Virus record (IMG/VR): IMGVR_UViG_2630968766_000008
Span: 1 to 38,909 of that record
Origin: a virus
Lineage: Duplodnaviria > Heunggongvirae > Uroviricota > Caudoviricetes
Direction: 5' to 3' (one strand)
Length of the DNA: 38,909 nucleotides
Below, piece after piece: positions 3,954-13,867 of this stretch (within the stretch, counting starts at the first letter, position 1; each line of letters opens with the position of its first letter). The notes under the pieces are model-generated. The model saw nothing but the letters and a program-made list of their open reading frames with translations, made no database searches and was not told the origin of the DNA. Position numbers and translations under genes: made by a program.

Positions 3954-4145
3954 TTAAAATCCTGCCGGGATTTCGTTATTATCCTGGTGAATAACTTTAT
4001 CGACCGGATAACAGTTGCCTGGAATTTTCTGTTCGGTTGCTGCTGCCATACATTCCTGCATTGTTCTGTGAACACTGACTGCAATATCAACTGGCTCTCC
4101 GGAAACAAGAAAAACCGTCAGAATAAGTGCAAATACTGGATTCAT
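3954..4145 (-). CDS. ydfD: YdfD-like small lysis protein (63 aa) with N-terminal hydrophobic helix
   Basis: 63-aa ORF (MNPVFALILTVFLVSG...) whose ATG overlaps the dicB stop as ATGA, the same arrangement as dicB-ydfD in the E. coli Qin prophage; size matches YdfD from memory. Confidence 0.6.
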   Translation of the reverse strand: MNPVFALILTVFLVSGEPVDIAVSVHRTMQECMAAATEQKIPGNCYPVDKVIHQDNNEIPAGF

Positions 4146-4499: not shown

Positions 4500-4557
4500 A
4501 AAAAGGGCGGCAGAGCAGTCACGGAGTAAAACTGATACCGCCAAACGTCACCAGAAA
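4500..4557 (-). ncRNA. dicF: DicF small RNA (ftsZ translational inhibitor) including its intrinsic terminator
   Basis: Reverse complement of 4500-4557 reads TTTCTGGTGACGTTTGGCGGTATCAGTTTTACTCCGTGACTGCTCTGCCGCCCTTTTT, which matches the DicF sequence as I recall it, ending in a GC-rich hairpin (GGCGG...CCGCC) plus U-run. Lies between ydfC and dicB as in Qin. Confidence 0.75.
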
Positions 4558-8484: not shown

Positions 8485-9255
8485 ATGGAGACTGTTTTTG
8501 ACGCACTGAAAGCGATGGGAAAAGCCACGTCGGTAGAGCTGGCTGCGCGACTTGATATCAGTCGTGAAGAAGTGCTGAACGAACTATGGGAACTGAAAAA
8601 GGCTGGCTTCGTTGATAAAAGCGTATACACCTGGCGTGTGGCTGGCGAAGGTGAATCCGGGGTAGCCGAAGAGCAGCCAGCACAATCTGAAGTACAGGAT
8701 GTGCTAACCAGGGAGGTCGAACGAAAAGTTACCGCTGACATGATGATTGAGTTTATCGGTCAGGAGGGTGCTAAAACGTGTGAGGAACTGGCGGGTAAGT
8801 TCGGTGTCAGCACTCGCAAGGTTGCTTCCACGCTGGCGGTAGTAACCGCAACGGGGCGGCTGGCACGCGTAAACCAGAACGGTAAATTTCGCTACTGCAT
8901 GCCGGGCGAGAATTTACCAGCTGAGCCGAAAGCTGCACCGGTAACGAAAACGGCTGGTAAGGCATTTCCTCAGCCCGCAGGTGTTGCGTTACCAGTACAG
9001 GAGGCTGCAACACAGGAAGATATTAAAACAGAAACTGTGGCGGACATTGTGCAGTCGCTGCCATCGTTCACCGAAACGCGAGCGGATGACCTGATTTTAC
9101 CATCGCTGCATATGGCAAACCGCGAACTGCGTCGAGCGAAAAGTCATGTCCAGAAGTGGGAGCGTGTCTGCGCCGCGCTGCGTGAGCTGAACAGGCACCG
9201 GGATATTGTCCGACAGATTGTCGATTCTTCCCGCCGTGTTGTATCGGAAAAGTGA
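8485..9255 (+). CDS. Hypothetical protein with two winged-helix-like repeats
   Basis: 256-aa ORF with Shine-Dalgarno GGAGG; two repeats of a [16 protein letters not shown].../[16 protein letters not shown]... wHTH-like pattern. Confidence 0.5.
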
Positions 9256-9692
9256 TTGCCGGAGGCGCTTATGGCAAAAGTATTTACACAAGAAGAGCGG
9301 GAAAAATTAAAGGGCAGGTTGTTGAACTTGTACGCCAGAGTGGGCGCGAGACGTTACGACAACTGGAAGCTAAAACCGGGGCAACAAGATATCTGATGAG
9401 TGTTCTCGCAAGAGAGCTGGTTGCCAGTGGCGATGTATACAACTCTGGCTACGGGTTATTCCCGTCTGAACAGGCGCGTAAGGACTGGCAAAACGCCCGC
9501 AAAAAACTCTCGAGGGCAAAGCTGAAGAAAACATCTGTGGTTGATCCGGACCTTATCTGGTCGTTACCAGACGGAGAAATTCGCCGCTATGACAGGCGTC
9601 TGAACATAATCTGTCGCGAGTGCCGAAAGAGCGAAGCTATGCAGCGTGTACTGGCTTTCTATCAGGGTAATTTTCAGGAGGCGGTACTGTGA
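9252..9692 (+). CDS. Hypothetical wHTH-like protein (146 aa, GTG start overlapping upstream stop as GTGA); start uncertain
   Basis: N-terminal [32 protein letters not shown] repeats the wHTH pattern of the preceding gene, which supports this frame over a 41-aa alternative-frame ORF at 9271-9396. Confidence 0.45.
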
Positions 9693-9749
9693 GTGAAATT
9701 AGCTATCAGGCTTCAATTGCCGCTGGCATTCGCATCAAAGGAGAGGAGC

Positions 9750-10106
9750 ATGGAAATAAAACCAGAGGATGAGTTAAGCAATATCGTTTTATTTCCGATA
9801 AAAGAGGATGACCCTCGTAATCAGGTTAATTTTCTTTATGAGCCATCGGAAAGACCATATTGCCATCATGCTTCTGTCCGGGTTGACGAAAAAGAGCGTC
9901 AGGTCCGCTGTAAAATCTGCGGTGCAGTTGTGGAGCCATTTGACTGGATGCTCTCTGTGGCGAAAAGAGAAACCAGACTGGCAGATGATGTAAAACTATT
10001 GCGCCAGGAGGAACAGGAAAGGCGAAAAAATATAGAAAAGCTAATTCAGATTGAGCGTAATGCGAAAGCACGGATACGCAGGGTGACAAAATCCAGAACT
10101 GAATAA
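9750..10106 (+). CDS. Hypothetical zinc-ribbon protein with basic coiled C-terminus
   Basis: 118-aa from ATG 9750 with AAAGGAGAGGAG Shine-Dalgarno; CHH...CKICG cysteine/histidine cluster; K/R/E-rich C-terminal helix. Confidence 0.45.
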   Translation: MEIKPEDELSNIVLFPIKEDDPRNQVNFLYEPSERPYCHHASVRVDEKERQVRCKICGAVVEPFDWMLSVAKRETRLADDVKLLRQEEQERRKNIEKLIQIERNAKARIRRVTKSRTE

Positions 10107-10199
10107 TTAAATTTAGCACTGTTAAAAATTTAATCCTTAACCGGAGGGATTTCTGCACCCTCAGAACAGCAGGAGGCCACCCGAAAGGGTGGTAGTGAA

Positions 10200-10382
10200 A
10201 TGCGAAAGTTCAAAATAATTATTGAAACGGGAATAGCTGGTGGAGATTTTGAGGATGTATTCGAAGTGGACGATGACGCAACACCTGATGAAATTCATGA
10301 CGAAGCAAAAGAAATTTTCTTTAACTACTGCAATTACTCATATCACGAAATAAAAGACGAAGAGGAAGAACAAAATGGCTGA
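10200..10382 (+). CDS. Small highly acidic protein (60 aa)
   Basis: ORF rich in D/E (FEDVFEVDDDATPDEIHDEAKE...KDEEEEQNG); preceded by AGGAGG and a hairpin; stop overlaps next start. Confidence 0.35.
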   Translation: MRKFKIIIETGIAGGDFEDVFEVDDDATPDEIHDEAKEIFFNYCNYSYHEIKDEEEEQNG

Positions 10383-10551
10383 TTTTGGTTCAACTAAATA
10401 CAACGTCAGTTTTGAAGAATGGCATGAACTGTTAATGGACTATGCAGAGTTACGTGGTGGAAGTGCTGTTGATGCTGAAGCCTGGCGTGATGACTACGAA
10501 GCAGGAAAAACTCCGGTCGAAGCATATTGTGATGAGTGGGGCGATGATTGA
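10375..10551 (+). CDS. Small acidic protein (58 aa), translationally coupled to the previous ORF
   Basis: ATG overlaps upstream stop (ATGGCTGA); translation MADFGSTKYNVSFEEWHELLMDYAELRGGSAVDAEAWRDDYEAGKTPVEAYCDEWGDD; below the 60-aa cutoff of the supplied ORF track. Confidence 0.3.
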   Translation: MADFGSTKYNVSFEEWHELLMDYAELRGGSAVDAEAWRDDYEAGKTPVEAYCDEWGDD

Positions 10552-10736
10552 TTATGACCACAATTACCAGAGAACGACTGCTGGAAATGTTTGCGTGAAA
10601 AGGAGAGTTAAGTAAAATCGCCGCGGGTGCTTGAGGCTATCTGCCTCGGGCATGAACACCAACGGCAGATAGAGAAAAGCCCCAGTTAACATTACGCGTC
10701 CGGCAAGACGCTTAACATTAATCTGAGGCTCAATCT

Positions 10737-10949
10737 ATGAACGGCAAATCTAGGTTAGCCTCTTACGTGCCGAAAGGCAAGGAGAAGCAGGCTATGAAGC
10801 AGCAAAAGGCGATGTTAGTCGCCCTGATCGTCATCTGTATTACCGTCATTGTGACGGCACTGGTAACGAGGAAAGACCTCTGCGAGGTACGAATCCGAAC
10901 CGGCCAGACGGAGGTCGCTGTCTTCACAGCTTACGAACCTGAGGAGTAA
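10737..10949 (+). CDS. mok: Mok-like regulatory reading frame (in-frame N-terminal extension of hok)
   Basis: 70-aa ORF sharing stop with hok, as for mokC/hokC in E. coli K-12 (69/50 aa). Confidence 0.5.
   Translation: MNGKSRLASYVPKGKEKQAMKQQKAMLVALIVICITVIVTALVTRKDLCEVRIRTGQTEVAVFTAYEPEE
10794..10949 (+). CDS. hok: Hok/Gef family type I toxin (membrane-depolarising peptide)
   Basis: 51-aa MKQQKAMLVALIVICITVIVTALVTRKDLCEVRIRTGQTEVAVFTAYEPEE, very close to HokC/Gef; AAGGAGAAG Shine-Dalgarno; followed by strong intrinsic terminator. Confidence 0.85.
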   Translation: MKQQKAMLVALIVICITVIVTALVTRKDLCEVRIRTGQTEVAVFTAYEPEE

Positions 10950-13590: not shown

Positions 13591-13620
13591 TTGACCAGAC
13601 ACATTGTCCGGGGCTATATT
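13591..13620 (+). promoter_or_regulatory. Late promoter pR' analogue (Q-modified)
   Basis: TTGACC (13591-13596) - 17/18 nt - TATATT (13615-13620) directly downstream of Q. Confidence 0.5.
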
Positions 13621-13682
13621 CCTCACGCGCCAGCAAAATCTGGCGTCGGGATTAGGAACCCCGGATTGAGACCGCGACAGAT

Positions 13683-13706
13683 ACACGCCGCGAGCGTGTT
13701 TTTTAT
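13683..13706 (+). terminator. tR'-like intrinsic terminator of the short late leader RNA
   Basis: ACACGCCGCGAGCGTGT hairpin followed by TTTTTTATT, ~80 nt downstream of the putative pR'. Confidence 0.5.
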
Positions 13707-13867
13707 TGTCGTATGCACGCGCACATCTGAATTATGGTGGGGCGTATGGGGGAGCTGAAAGGCTCGCCGGTTGGTTTCCCGGTAGTTCCTAACCCTGTAC
13801 GTCTCACCACCCGATGATTAGGAACCTGACGGTGGTGATAGTTTAGAAACCACTAGAGGGCGTCATT

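What the first reader, a model, noticed from the sequence alone, without database searches (positions are those of the whole stretch)
10165..10551. Pair of translationally coupled small acidic proteins, the first with a hairpin between an AGGAGG and its start codon
The 60-aa and 58-aa ORFs are both strongly acidic (D/E-rich) and overlap as ATGGCTGA. Small acidic early phage proteins are often DNA mimics or other anti-defence factors. Upstream, an AGGAGG at 10170-10175 is separated from the ATG at 10200 by a stable hairpin (CCACCC-GAAA-GGGTGG). This could bring the two into functional spacing (as in T4 gene 38) or regulate translation.
Basis: partly seen in the sequence, partly recalled or inferred. 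Interest (0 to 1): 0.45.

Follow-up and report, generated by a model that had tools for sequence, protein, structure and literature searches.

The report
Split ribosome site before acidic gene pair
Two real, conserved, very acidic small prophage genes of unknown function are preceded by a widespread portable leader whose hairpin sits between a strong ribosome-binding sequence and the start codon, the layout known from two phage T4 genes.

Summary
The window is an E. coli lambdoid (Qin/Rac-like) prophage.

**The genes.** ORF1 (10200-10382) is Pfam DUF7167. ORF2 (10375-10551) has no Pfam family and matches phrog_519. Both are under purifying selection (pN/pS 0.18 and 0.24). They are the two most acidic ORFs in the window (net -14 and -12) and overlap as ATGGCTGA. 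Confident AlphaFold models (beta-beta-alpha; three-helix bundle) match no solved structure, including no DNA mimic. Each family occurs without the other in distant phages. Function stays unknown.

**The hairpin.** It belongs to a ~70-nt leader that:
- is absent from Rfam;
- is present in 2604 of 5426 complete E. coli genomes, up to 6 copies each;
- precedes at least five unrelated gene families.

In four of those families the 6-9 nt between hairpin and AUG have no Shine-Dalgarno complementarity. The only one is the AGGAGG abutting the hairpin, 23 nt from the AUG in the window. This matches the split ribosome-binding sites of T4 genes 38 and 25.

Covariation is consistent with the hairpin but not significant. 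The translational reading is supported; the anti-defence reading is untested.

The parts
10107..10199 (+). Untranslated leader between the 137-aa upstream gene and ORF1. The conserved portable core is about 10126-10199.
   Evidence: The core is found in 2604 of 5426 complete E. coli genomes, at 4102 places; 28 of the 30 rows shown lie under no annotated feature and 2 under a DUF4014 gene. It precedes at least 5 unrelated gene families. There is no Rfam match and no promoter or terminator consensus.
10144..10162 (+). Leader hairpin 1: GAGGG 10144-10148, loop AUUUCUGCA, CCCUC 10158-10162. It encloses a second GGAGG. Its role is unknown.
   Evidence: It is predicted in the MFE and centroid folds. 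All 3' arm variants seen are G:U-compatible. One lineage restores 5 bp in a shifted register.
10171..10176 (+). Shine-Dalgarno sequence AGGAGG, 23 nt upstream of the ORF1 start codon.
   Evidence: Duplex with the 16S 3' tail scores -9.8 kcal/mol, the best within 35 nt of the start. AGGAGG is kept in 114 of 131 leader copies, and the rest retain a GGAG or GGAA core.
10177..10192 (+). Hairpin 2: CCACCC-GAAA-GGGUGG (6 bp plus G10176:U10193) between the Shine-Dalgarno sequence and the start codon.
   Evidence: Folding: -16.3 kcal/mol for the 41-nt context, z -3.9. All 36 distinct upstream regions of DUF7167 genes (151 instances) fold a hairpin here, -5.4 to -16.9 kcal/mol. The window variant differs from the common CCGCCC/GGGCGG by a compensatory G:C to A:U change.
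10193..10199 (+). 7-nt spacer UAGUGAA between the hairpin base and the AUG. This is the effective SD-AUG spacing once the hairpin is looped out.
   Evidence: The spacer has no anti-SD complementarity (-0.4 kcal/mol). Spacers are 6-9 nt in four gene families.
10200..10382 (+). ORF1: 60 aa, DUF7167 family, net charge -14.
   Evidence: Pfam PF23768, E 2.4e-14, 53.6 bits against a cut-off of 24.4. phrog_1997. pN/pS 0.18 with a third-position bias. The N-terminus MRKFK is conserved in distant homologues. AlphaFold pLDDT 87, beta-hairpin plus helix plus acidic tail.
10362..10366 (+). Internal Shine-Dalgarno sequence GAGGA for ORF2, inside the codons of ORF1's acidic tail.
   Evidence: GAGGA is read directly from the sequence, 8 nt before the ATG at 10375. 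The overlapping 7-mer AGAGGAA (10361-10367) scores -6.0 kcal/mol with 7 nt to the ATG.
10375..10551 (+). ORF2: 58 aa, unnamed family (phrog_519), net charge -12. Its start overlaps the ORF1 stop (ATGGCTGA, 10375-10382).
   Evidence: phrog_519, E 3e-22; no Pfam match. pN/pS 0.24. The junction is kept in 62 of 65 instances. AlphaFold pLDDT 88, three-helix bundle. There are 69 cluster representatives among 1.84 billion, mostly about 35-85 aa with three longer.
10554..10598 (+). 14-codon remnant ORF (MTTITRERLLEMFA*). It marks the recombination or deletion junction that ends the cassette.
   Evidence: Homology of most relatives stops at 10551. In relatives, ORF2 is followed by an ATGA-coupled gene that begins MSEI, as does the annotated Ead/Ea22-like gene in ArgO145.

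Best explanation
The locus is a small accessory-gene cassette in the early-right (post-replication, nin-like) region of an E. coli lambdoid prophage.

**Mechanism proposed.** A portable leader of about 70 nt supplies a split ribosome-binding site. A strong, single-stranded AGGAGG is followed directly by a stable 6-7 bp tetraloop hairpin. Only 7 unstructured nucleotides separate the base of that hairpin from the AUG of ORF1. When the hairpin forms, the linear distance of 23 nt, too long for initiation, becomes an effective distance of about 7 nt. The 30S subunit can then use the distant Shine-Dalgarno sequence. ORF2 is translated by coupling: its AUG overlaps ORF1's stop codon and it has its own GAGGA inside ORF1's last codons.

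**The products.** They are two independent, compactly folded, highly acidic mini-proteins: DUF7167 (beta-beta-alpha) and a three-helix bundle. Most probably they are early accessory factors that act by binding another protein. Their target is unknown.

**Shown here.**
- The anatomy of the leader and the two ORFs.
- That both ORFs are real coding genes.
- The conservation and portability of the leader.
- The absence of any other Shine-Dalgarno sequence before the start codon.
- The predicted stability of the hairpin.

**Inferred, not shown.**
- That the hairpin enhances initiation.
- That ORF2 translation is coupled to ORF1.
- Any activity of the proteins.
For: **Architecture of the window copy.**
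- The only strong Shine-Dalgarno sequence within 35 nt is AGGAGG, 22-23 nt upstream (-9.8 kcal/mol). Neighbouring genes have theirs at 2-8 nt.
- The intervening 23-24 nt fold at -11.5 to -13.6 kcal/mol. The 41-nt context has z -3.9.

**Portability of the leader.**
- A scan anchored only on the upstream 25-mer, so not on the hairpin, gave 133 copies and 70 distinct sequences.
- These precede DUF7167, an M[TA]ELTK family, a 72-aa membrane protein, a 158-aa family and a 173-aa family.
- In the first four families (110 copies) the spacer after the hairpin is 6-9 nt and has essentially no anti-SD complementarity. Only the fifth carries its own GGAG.

**The hairpin across relatives.**
- Every one of 36 distinct DUF7167 upstream regions keeps a hairpin at this position.
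- The stem is the most polymorphic part of the leader (pi 0.20 and 0.11 against 0.02-0.05 for hairpin 1, the Shine-Dalgarno sequence and the spacer). Even so, 89-96% of stem cells pair.
- Two stem positions show compensatory double changes, and C-to-U changes giving G:U pairs predominate.
- In phage ArgO145 the upstream half of the leader is missing, but the Shine-Dalgarno sequence, hairpin and spacer are retained before DUF7167.
- DUF7167 relatives in Citrobacter and Klebsiella that lack the leader have an ordinary, closely spaced ribosome-binding site.

**Precedent.** T4 gene 38 goes from 22 to 5 nt and gene 25 from 27 to 11 nt. In both, mutations that destabilise the stem lower initiation (PMC3014915).

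**The genes are real.**
- pN/pS is 0.18 and 0.24 with a third-position bias. Other frames give 0.5-2.1.
- Pfam and PHROG matches.
- Confident models, pLDDT 87 and 88.
Against: - No experiment was possible.
- Formal covariation is not significant: 2 pairs show double changes, and 80-99 of 500 shuffles do as well.
- The copies are 90-100% identical, so conservation partly reflects recent common descent and recombination.
- Variants with an A.C mismatch or a weakened stem are not rare (4-9 copies each).
- The 3' arm (GGUGGUA in the window) has moderate anti-SD complementarity (-6.2 kcal/mol at 5 nt). The hairpin could therefore also be read as masking a proximal weak site.
- A few leader copies are followed by no ORF at the expected distance. 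These are junctions with other modules, IS1 insertions or pseudogenes.
- Nothing indicates what the proteins bind.
Confidence: 0.6

Rival explanations
1. The hairpin, or the whole two-hairpin leader, is a negative or conditional translational operator. It could mask the SD-like 3' arm, or be bound by a phage or host RNA-binding protein. Genes carrying the leader would then be repressed or timed rather than enhanced.
For: - The 3' arm GGUGGUA pairs with the anti-SD at -6.2 kcal/mol at ideal spacing and lies inside the stem.
- Hairpin 1 hides a second GGAGG, and its CCCUC arm could alternatively pair with the real Shine-Dalgarno sequence.
- The identical leader sits before up to six genes per genome, as expected for a shared operator.
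- The loop is usually a GAAA tetraloop. From my own knowledge, this is a fold that arginine-rich peptides such as lambda N recognise.
Against: - In the common variant the 3' arm is GGGCGG, a poorer Shine-Dalgarno sequence.
- The upstream AGGAGG is predicted to be single-stranded in the MFE and centroid folds.
- The loop sequence is not strictly conserved: GGCA, UAAA, GGAA, AAAA and GAUA all occur.
- No boxA-like partner is conserved, and no candidate binding protein was identified.
Confidence: 0.15
2. The leader is mainly a recombination linker or an mRNA processing and stability element. On this view a conserved intergenic sequence lets lambdoid phages swap accessory cassettes, or its AU-rich 5' part is cut and the hairpins protect the new 5' end. 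The position of the hairpin relative to the AUG would then be incidental.
For: - The same DUF7167-ORF2 cassette lies in the nin-like region here and in the early-left Ea22 region of ArgO145.
- Homology breakpoints fall just after the hairpin and just after ORF2.
- Some copies abut unrelated modules with no ORF.
- The 5' part of the leader is AU-rich and the sequence is highly conserved throughout.
Against: - A pure linker would not explain why four unrelated downstream gene families lack any Shine-Dalgarno sequence of their own.
- Nor would it explain why all four start 6-9 nt after the hairpin.
- Nor why ArgO145 keeps only the Shine-Dalgarno sequence plus hairpin part.
- The two roles are not mutually exclusive.
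Confidence: 0.15
3. ORF1 and/or ORF2 are DNA mimics or other anti-defence factors that inhibit a host nuclease or restriction system.
For: - Extreme acidity: net -14 and -12, 28-32% D/E.
- Small size, and location in early operons among accessory genes.
- Distant DUF7167 homologues sit next to exonuclease or recombination genes in Klebsiella and Enterococcus phages.
- ORF2 relatives occur in virulent Vi01-like phages.
Against: - BFVD matches are all uncharacterised proteins.
- No hits in PADLOC, NCBIfam or PDB sequences.
- No paper mentions DUF7167.
- The conserved residues of DUF7167 look structural: hydrophobic core and helix cap.
- Acidity alone is weak evidence.
Confidence: 0.2

Closest known systems
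Split ribosome-binding sites of bacteriophage T4 genes 38 and 25 (Nivinskas et al. 1999; Malys and Nivinskas 2009, as reviewed in PMC3014915)
   Same: The Shine-Dalgarno sequence is too far from the AUG in the linear sequence: 22 and 27 nt in T4, 23 nt here. A local hairpin occupies the gap. Looping it out leaves a working spacing: 5 and 11 nt in T4, 7 nt here.
   Different: - Unrelated sequence and a different phage group (temperate lambdoid prophages).
- Here the element is a portable leader reused before at least five unrelated genes, present in about half of complete E. coli genomes. It is not tied to one gene.
- It comes with a second upstream hairpin.
- Its function is not tested experimentally.
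E. coli thrS split ribosome-binding site (Sacerdot et al., as cited in PMC3936740)
   Same: The ribosome accommodates a stable hairpin within its binding site without unfolding it.
   Different: In thrS the hairpin is a tRNA-like operator bound by ThrRS for feedback repression. No such regulator is known here.
Pfam DUF7167 (PF23768) / phrog_1997
   Same: ORF1 is a full-length member, matching profile positions 1-60 of 60.
   Different: The family has no known function. Relatives outside E. coli lack both the leader and ORF2.
Small acidic phage DNA-mimic inhibitors (T7 Ocr and gp5.9, phi29 p56, T4 Arn; named from my own knowledge)
   Same: Size (50-120 aa), strong negative charge and early expression.
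   Different: No detectable sequence or fold similarity. No evidence for a target.
exo-xis region small ORFs of lambda and Stx phages (orf60a, orf61, orf63, ea22, ea8.5; PMC8614690, PMC7093339, listed)
   Same: Small early accessory genes in the same kind of genomic neighbourhood. In ArgO145 the pair sits among Ead/Ea22-like genes.
   Different: Lambda is absent from the 36 ORF1 tblastn hits and from the ORF2 rows shown. Neither ORF matches a solved chain by sequence, and ORF2's fold matches none. Whether the solved Orf63, Ea22 or Ea8.5 structures were among the chains compared was not checked.

Membership tests
T4 gene 38/25-type split ribosome-binding site | A strong Shine-Dalgarno sequence lies at a non-functional linear distance (over about 15 nt) from the start codon. 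| tested here: met
   AGGAGG 10171-10176 and ATG 10200 are separated by 23 nt.
T4 gene 38/25-type split ribosome-binding site | The intervening sequence forms a stable local hairpin, and looping it out leaves canonical spacing. | tested here: met
   The spacer folds at -11.5 to -13.6 kcal/mol, with z -3.9. Seven nt remain here, and 6-9 nt in three other gene families.
T4 gene 38/25-type split ribosome-binding site | No alternative accessible Shine-Dalgarno sequence at normal spacing. | tested here: met
   The spacer scores -0.4 kcal/mol against the anti-SD. The only proximal SD-like run (GGUGGUA, -6.2) is the 3' arm of the stem.
T4 gene 38/25-type split ribosome-binding site | The structure is conserved among relatives, with compensatory changes. 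| tested here: inconclusive
   A hairpin is present in all 36 distinct DUF7167 upstream regions, and 95-96% of cells pair. Only 2 pairs show double changes, and the shuffle controls are not significant.
T4 gene 38/25-type split ribosome-binding site | Stem-destabilising mutations reduce initiation and compensatory mutations restore it. | not testable with these tools
   This needs reporter fusions or toeprinting.
Pfam DUF7167 | Score above the Pfam gathering threshold over the whole domain. | tested here: met
   53.6 bits against a cut-off of 24.4, covering profile positions 1-60 of 60.
DNA-mimic anti-defence proteins | High density of acidic residues. | tested here: met
   32% and 28% D/E, pI about 4.06.
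DNA-mimic anti-defence proteins | Sequence or fold relationship to a known mimic. | tested here: not met
DNA-mimic anti-defence proteins | Binds and inhibits a DNA-binding enzyme, or rescues phage from a defence system. | not testable with these tools
   This needs binding and plating assays.
Lambdoid nut/boxB antitermination site | A boxA element plus a boxB hairpin, once downstream of each early promoter. | tested here: not met
   No boxA is conserved across copies. There are up to six copies per genome, always directly before a start codon. There is no Rfam hit.

The most novel reading that the evidence does not exclude
The identical SD+hairpin leader, shared by unrelated accessory genes in several co-resident prophages (up to six copies per cell), is a common post-transcriptional operator. 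A phage or host RNA-binding factor would recognise the tetraloop hairpin and switch a cross-prophage set of accessory genes on or off together. The acidic DUF7167/ORF2 pair would be among its main outputs.
Probability: 0.12. Interest if true: 0.7.

Novelty: new member of a known kind. Interest (0 to 1): 0.4.

Why it matters
**Translation.** Split ribosome-binding sites are textbook curiosities known from two T4 genes. If confirmed, this one would be far more widespread: it occurs in about 48% of complete E. coli genomes and is reused before at least five gene families.

**Annotation.** Start-codon and ribosome-site predictors that expect 5-10 nt spacing may mis-handle such genes. Several database entries extend DUF7167 to 78-93 aa.

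**Phage genome evolution.** The leader is a ready-made, self-contained initiation cassette. It also marks the junctions at which lambdoid phages exchange accessory genes.

**The proteins.** The two acidic proteins are abundant and conserved, and I found nothing about them in the papers searched (0 papers for 'DUF7167'). They are reasonable candidates for a host-interaction screen.

Tried and rejected
- **Mis-typed scan.** My first collection scan returned nothing because I wrote GAAAGGNGG instead of GAAAGGGNGG. This is not evidence of absence; IMG/VR holds at least 370 DUF7167 loci.
- **16-mer scan of one genome per species.** Most hits were chance matches in unrelated phyla. Only E. coli, Shigella and Citrobacter were real.
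- **Rfam.** Nothing over the leader at gathering or E-value thresholds.
- **Promoter and terminator scan.** Nothing in the leader. The hairpin has no U-tract, so it is not an intrinsic terminator on either strand.
- **nut/boxB reading.** Rejected; see the membership test.
- **Obligate heterodimer or toxin-antitoxin reading of the pair.** Weakened. Each family occurs alone in other phages, and Citrobacter and Klebsiella DUF7167 genes are followed by unrelated genes.
- **Apparent ORF2-DUF551 fusion (H14).** This is only a 3' remnant of ORF2 upstream of the DUF551 gene.
- **Literature searches.** The family name, the accessions and the hairpin sequence found nothing relevant.
- **Loose regex for hairpins.** It picked up spurious sequences. 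I redid the count on a filtered list.
- **Diversity comparison for ORF2.** Unreliable because downstream regions in that set differ. I did not use it.
- **K-12 Rac.** It lacks the pair.

Full report
**Context.** The window is an E. coli lambdoid prophage of the Qin/Rac type. The stretch 10100-10620 is 100% identical to E. coli SC516. RefSeq annotates the gene order there as repressor, Cro, YdaT-like, DnaT-like, P, DUF1627, DUF977, hypothetical, 'DUF7167 family protein', hypothetical, hokD, DUF968, RusA, Q. The finding therefore lies in the early-right operon, between the replication genes and the Q antiterminator, in a nin-like accessory region.

**Checking the observation.**
- ORF1 is 10200-10382 (60 aa) and ORF2 is 10375-10551 (58 aa). 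They overlap as ATGGCTGA.
- The hairpin is CCACCC (10177-82), GAAA, GGGTGG (10187-92), with a further possible G10176:U10193 pair.
- Seven bases (TAGTGAA) separate the hairpin from the ATG.
- The motif occurs once in the window and never in 100 shuffles.
- The 41-nt context folds at -16.3 kcal/mol with z -3.9.
- A scan for SD, stable hairpin and ORF start found five other matches in the window. Their spacers fold less stably (-6.5 to -12.1 against -13.6 kcal/mol). I judged from the ORF list that each falls inside a longer ORF, but did not check annotation.
- Both proteins are strongly acidic: net -14 and -12, pI about 4.06. They are the two most negatively charged ORFs of at least 50 aa in the window.

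**Are the ORFs genes?** Yes.
- ORF1 matches Pfam DUF7167 over the whole profile (53.6 bits against a cut-off of 24.4) and phrog_1997.
- ORF2 has no Pfam family but matches phrog_519 (E 3e-22).
- Across 42 distinct indel-free copies, polymorphism is concentrated at third codon positions. pN/pS is 0.18 for ORF1 and 0.24 for ORF2. The same DNA read in the other frames gives 0.5-2.1.
- The N-terminus MRKFK is conserved in homologues from Klebsiella, Citrobacter, Pseudomonas and Enterococcus phages. This fixes the start codon at 10200.
- The overlap ATGGCTGA is kept in 62 of 65 instances.
- A GAGGA inside ORF1's acidic tail lies 8 nt before the ORF2 ATG (one search scores the overlapping 7-mer AGAGGAA at -6.0 kcal/mol).

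**What the proteins are.**
- AlphaFold2 gives confident models. ORF1 (pLDDT 87) is a beta-hairpin packed on a helix with a disordered acidic tail. ORF2 (pLDDT 88) is a three-helix bundle.
- Foldseek against BFVD finds only other uncharacterised phage proteins of about 57 aa.
- There are no sequence matches in the PDB, NCBIfam or PADLOC.
- No paper in the searchable library mentions DUF7167.

**Distribution of the two protein families.**
- DUF7167 has distant homologues next to exonuclease or recombination genes in a Klebsiella phage of the Guernseyvirinae and in large Enterococcus phages of the Herelleviridae.
- ORF2's family is small: 69 cluster representatives among 1.84 billion, mostly about 35-85 aa, with three longer outliers.
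- ORF2 relatives also occur in virulent Vi01-like Ackermannviridae, just after the capsid gene.
- In Citrobacter and Klebsiella prophages, DUF7167 is followed by unrelated genes.
- The pairing is therefore specific to the E. coli lineage. The two proteins need not work as a complex.
- Their function remains unknown. Acidity and early expression are compatible with a DNA mimic or another protein-binding inhibitor, but no test made here supports that specifically.

**The hairpin belongs to a larger, portable leader.**
- In phage ArgO145 the same gene pair lies in the early-left Ea22 region. Its hairpin there is CCGCCC-GAAA-GGGCGG, so the window differs by a compensatory G:C to A:U change.
- In the same phage, the same leader with the same kind of hairpin also precedes an unrelated gene.
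- Further phages show it before yet other genes.
- To sample without bias towards the hairpin, I scanned metagenome and genome collections with an anchor taken only from the upstream part of the leader. This gave 133 copies and 70 distinct sequences.
- These copies precede five gene families:
  - DUF7167, with 7 nt from the hairpin to the AUG;
  - an M[TA]ELTK family, 9 nt;
  - a 72-aa membrane protein, 6 nt;
  - a 158-aa family, 9 nt;
  - a 173-aa family, 11 nt.
- The core leader occurs in 2604 of 5426 complete E. coli genomes, at 4102 places and up to six per genome. Of the 30 rows shown, 28 lie under no annotated feature and 2 under a DUF4014 gene.
- Across one genome per species, the 16-mer anchor gave real hits only in E. 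coli, Shigella and Citrobacter; a Klebsiella and a Citrobacter-type DUF7167 locus that I read directly have no leader.
- Rfam has no family for it. It contains no promoter or terminator consensus. A text search for its sequence found no paper.

**Why I read it as a split ribosome-binding site.**
- In the four families without their own Shine-Dalgarno sequence (110 copies), the 6-9 nt between hairpin and AUG have essentially no complementarity to the 16S rRNA tail (+2.2 to -1.2 kcal/mol). The AGGAGG abutting the hairpin scores -9.7. Only the fifth family has its own GGAG.
- Neighbouring genes in the window have their Shine-Dalgarno sequences 2-8 nt from the start.
- All 36 distinct upstream regions of DUF7167 genes (151 copies, partly collected through the protein and so independently of the leader) fold a hairpin at the same place, -5.4 to -16.9 kcal/mol.
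- ArgO145 has lost the upstream half of the leader but keeps the Shine-Dalgarno sequence, hairpin and spacer.
- DUF7167 relatives that lack the leader use an ordinary, close Shine-Dalgarno sequence.
- This is the architecture shown experimentally for T4 gene 38 (22 to 5 nt) and gene 25 (27 to 11 nt). There, destabilising the stem lowers initiation (PMC3014915).
- The ribosome is also known to accommodate a hairpin within the thrS site (PMC3936740).

**Limits of the RNA evidence.**
- The copies are closely related, and formal covariation is not significant. Two stem positions show double changes, and 80-99 of 500 shuffles do as well.
- The supportive signals are modest:
  - The stem is the most polymorphic part of the leader, yet 89-96% of stem cells pair.
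  - Among changed stem cells in distinct stems, 17 remain paired and 13 are broken.
  - C-to-U changes, which give G:U in the plus-strand RNA, outnumber G-to-A changes 16 to 9.
- Mismatched (A.C) variants occur in several copies.
- The 3' arm of the window's stem has moderate anti-SD complementarity. A masking or operator role cannot be excluded.
- The breakpoints of homology lie just after the hairpin and just after ORF2. The leader therefore also behaves as a recombination junction.
- Some copies are followed by pseudogenes, IS1 or other modules.

**Verdict.**
- The translational interpretation is well supported by comparative anatomy but untested.
- The anti-defence interpretation of the proteins is open.
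- The element is best filed as a new, widespread example of a known kind, the T4-type split ribosome-binding site, attached here to a conserved cassette of two acidic proteins of unknown function.

Noticed in passing
window 10554-10598: A 14-codon remnant ORF (MTTITRERLLEMFA*) directly follows ORF2. It resembles the N-terminus of the leader-associated 173-aa family (M[GE]ITKERLLEIANL). It marks a deletion or recombination junction with the hok/sok module. In most relatives ORF2 is instead followed by an ATGA-coupled gene that begins MSEI, as the annotated Ead/Ea22-like gene does in ArgO145.
   Followed up: partly
window 10625-10949: A complete type I toxin-antitoxin locus: sok RNA (Rfam, 107 bits) overlapping mok/hokD (Pfam Hok/gef), immediately downstream of the cassette.
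   Followed up: partly
window 4505-4556 (-), 13614-13814 (+): DicF sRNA lies in the immunity-left region. IsrK and a P1-type C4 antisense RNA, with its a1/b1 targets, lie just after the Q-like gene.
   Followed up: no
window 10144-10162; L216: Leader hairpin 1 (GAGGG/CCCUC) encloses a second GGAGG. Its CCCUC arm could alternatively pair with the real Shine-Dalgarno sequence. One lineage (GGAGTG...CACTCTC) restores a 5-bp helix in a register shifted by 2. Its function is unknown.
   Followed up: partly
L081, L110, L175, L067, L084 (metagenome contigs): In several copies DUF7167 is a pseudogene (ATG changed to ATA or AGG, TGC changed to TGA, or premature stops) while the downstream ORF2 remains intact.
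   Followed up: partly
L022, L036 (Shigella flexneri, E. coli ECMA0423); L039, L104: In these leader copies the sequence right after the hairpin switches to an unrelated module. One example is a 228-aa ORF (MTSINIFMTVADFKRPK...) that starts 61 nt further on. This shows that the 3' base of the hairpin is a recombination junction.
   Followed up: partly
window 9693-10106: The upstream gene (phrog_1621) has a weak zinc-ribbon match (CxxC...CxxC, TFIIB-type, below threshold). RefSeq starts it at the internal ATG 9750, which has an AAGGAGA 5 nt upstream.
   Followed up: no
window 9252-9692: The DUF977 gene is intact as an ORF in the window, but RefSeq marks it 'frameshifted' in the matching SC516 prophage.
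   Followed up: no
protein database entries P0001, P0003-P0006 and others: Many database gene calls extend DUF7167 at the N-terminus to 78-93 aa. The likely reason is that gene callers find no Shine-Dalgarno sequence at normal spacing before the true ATG.
   Followed up: no
L270 1201-1277 (phage phiSTEC1575-Stx2k): A 77-bp remnant of the 3' end of ORF2 (93.5% identical) survives upstream of a DUF551 gene. This is another sign of frequent recombination at the ORF2 stop / ATGA junction.
   Followed up: yes
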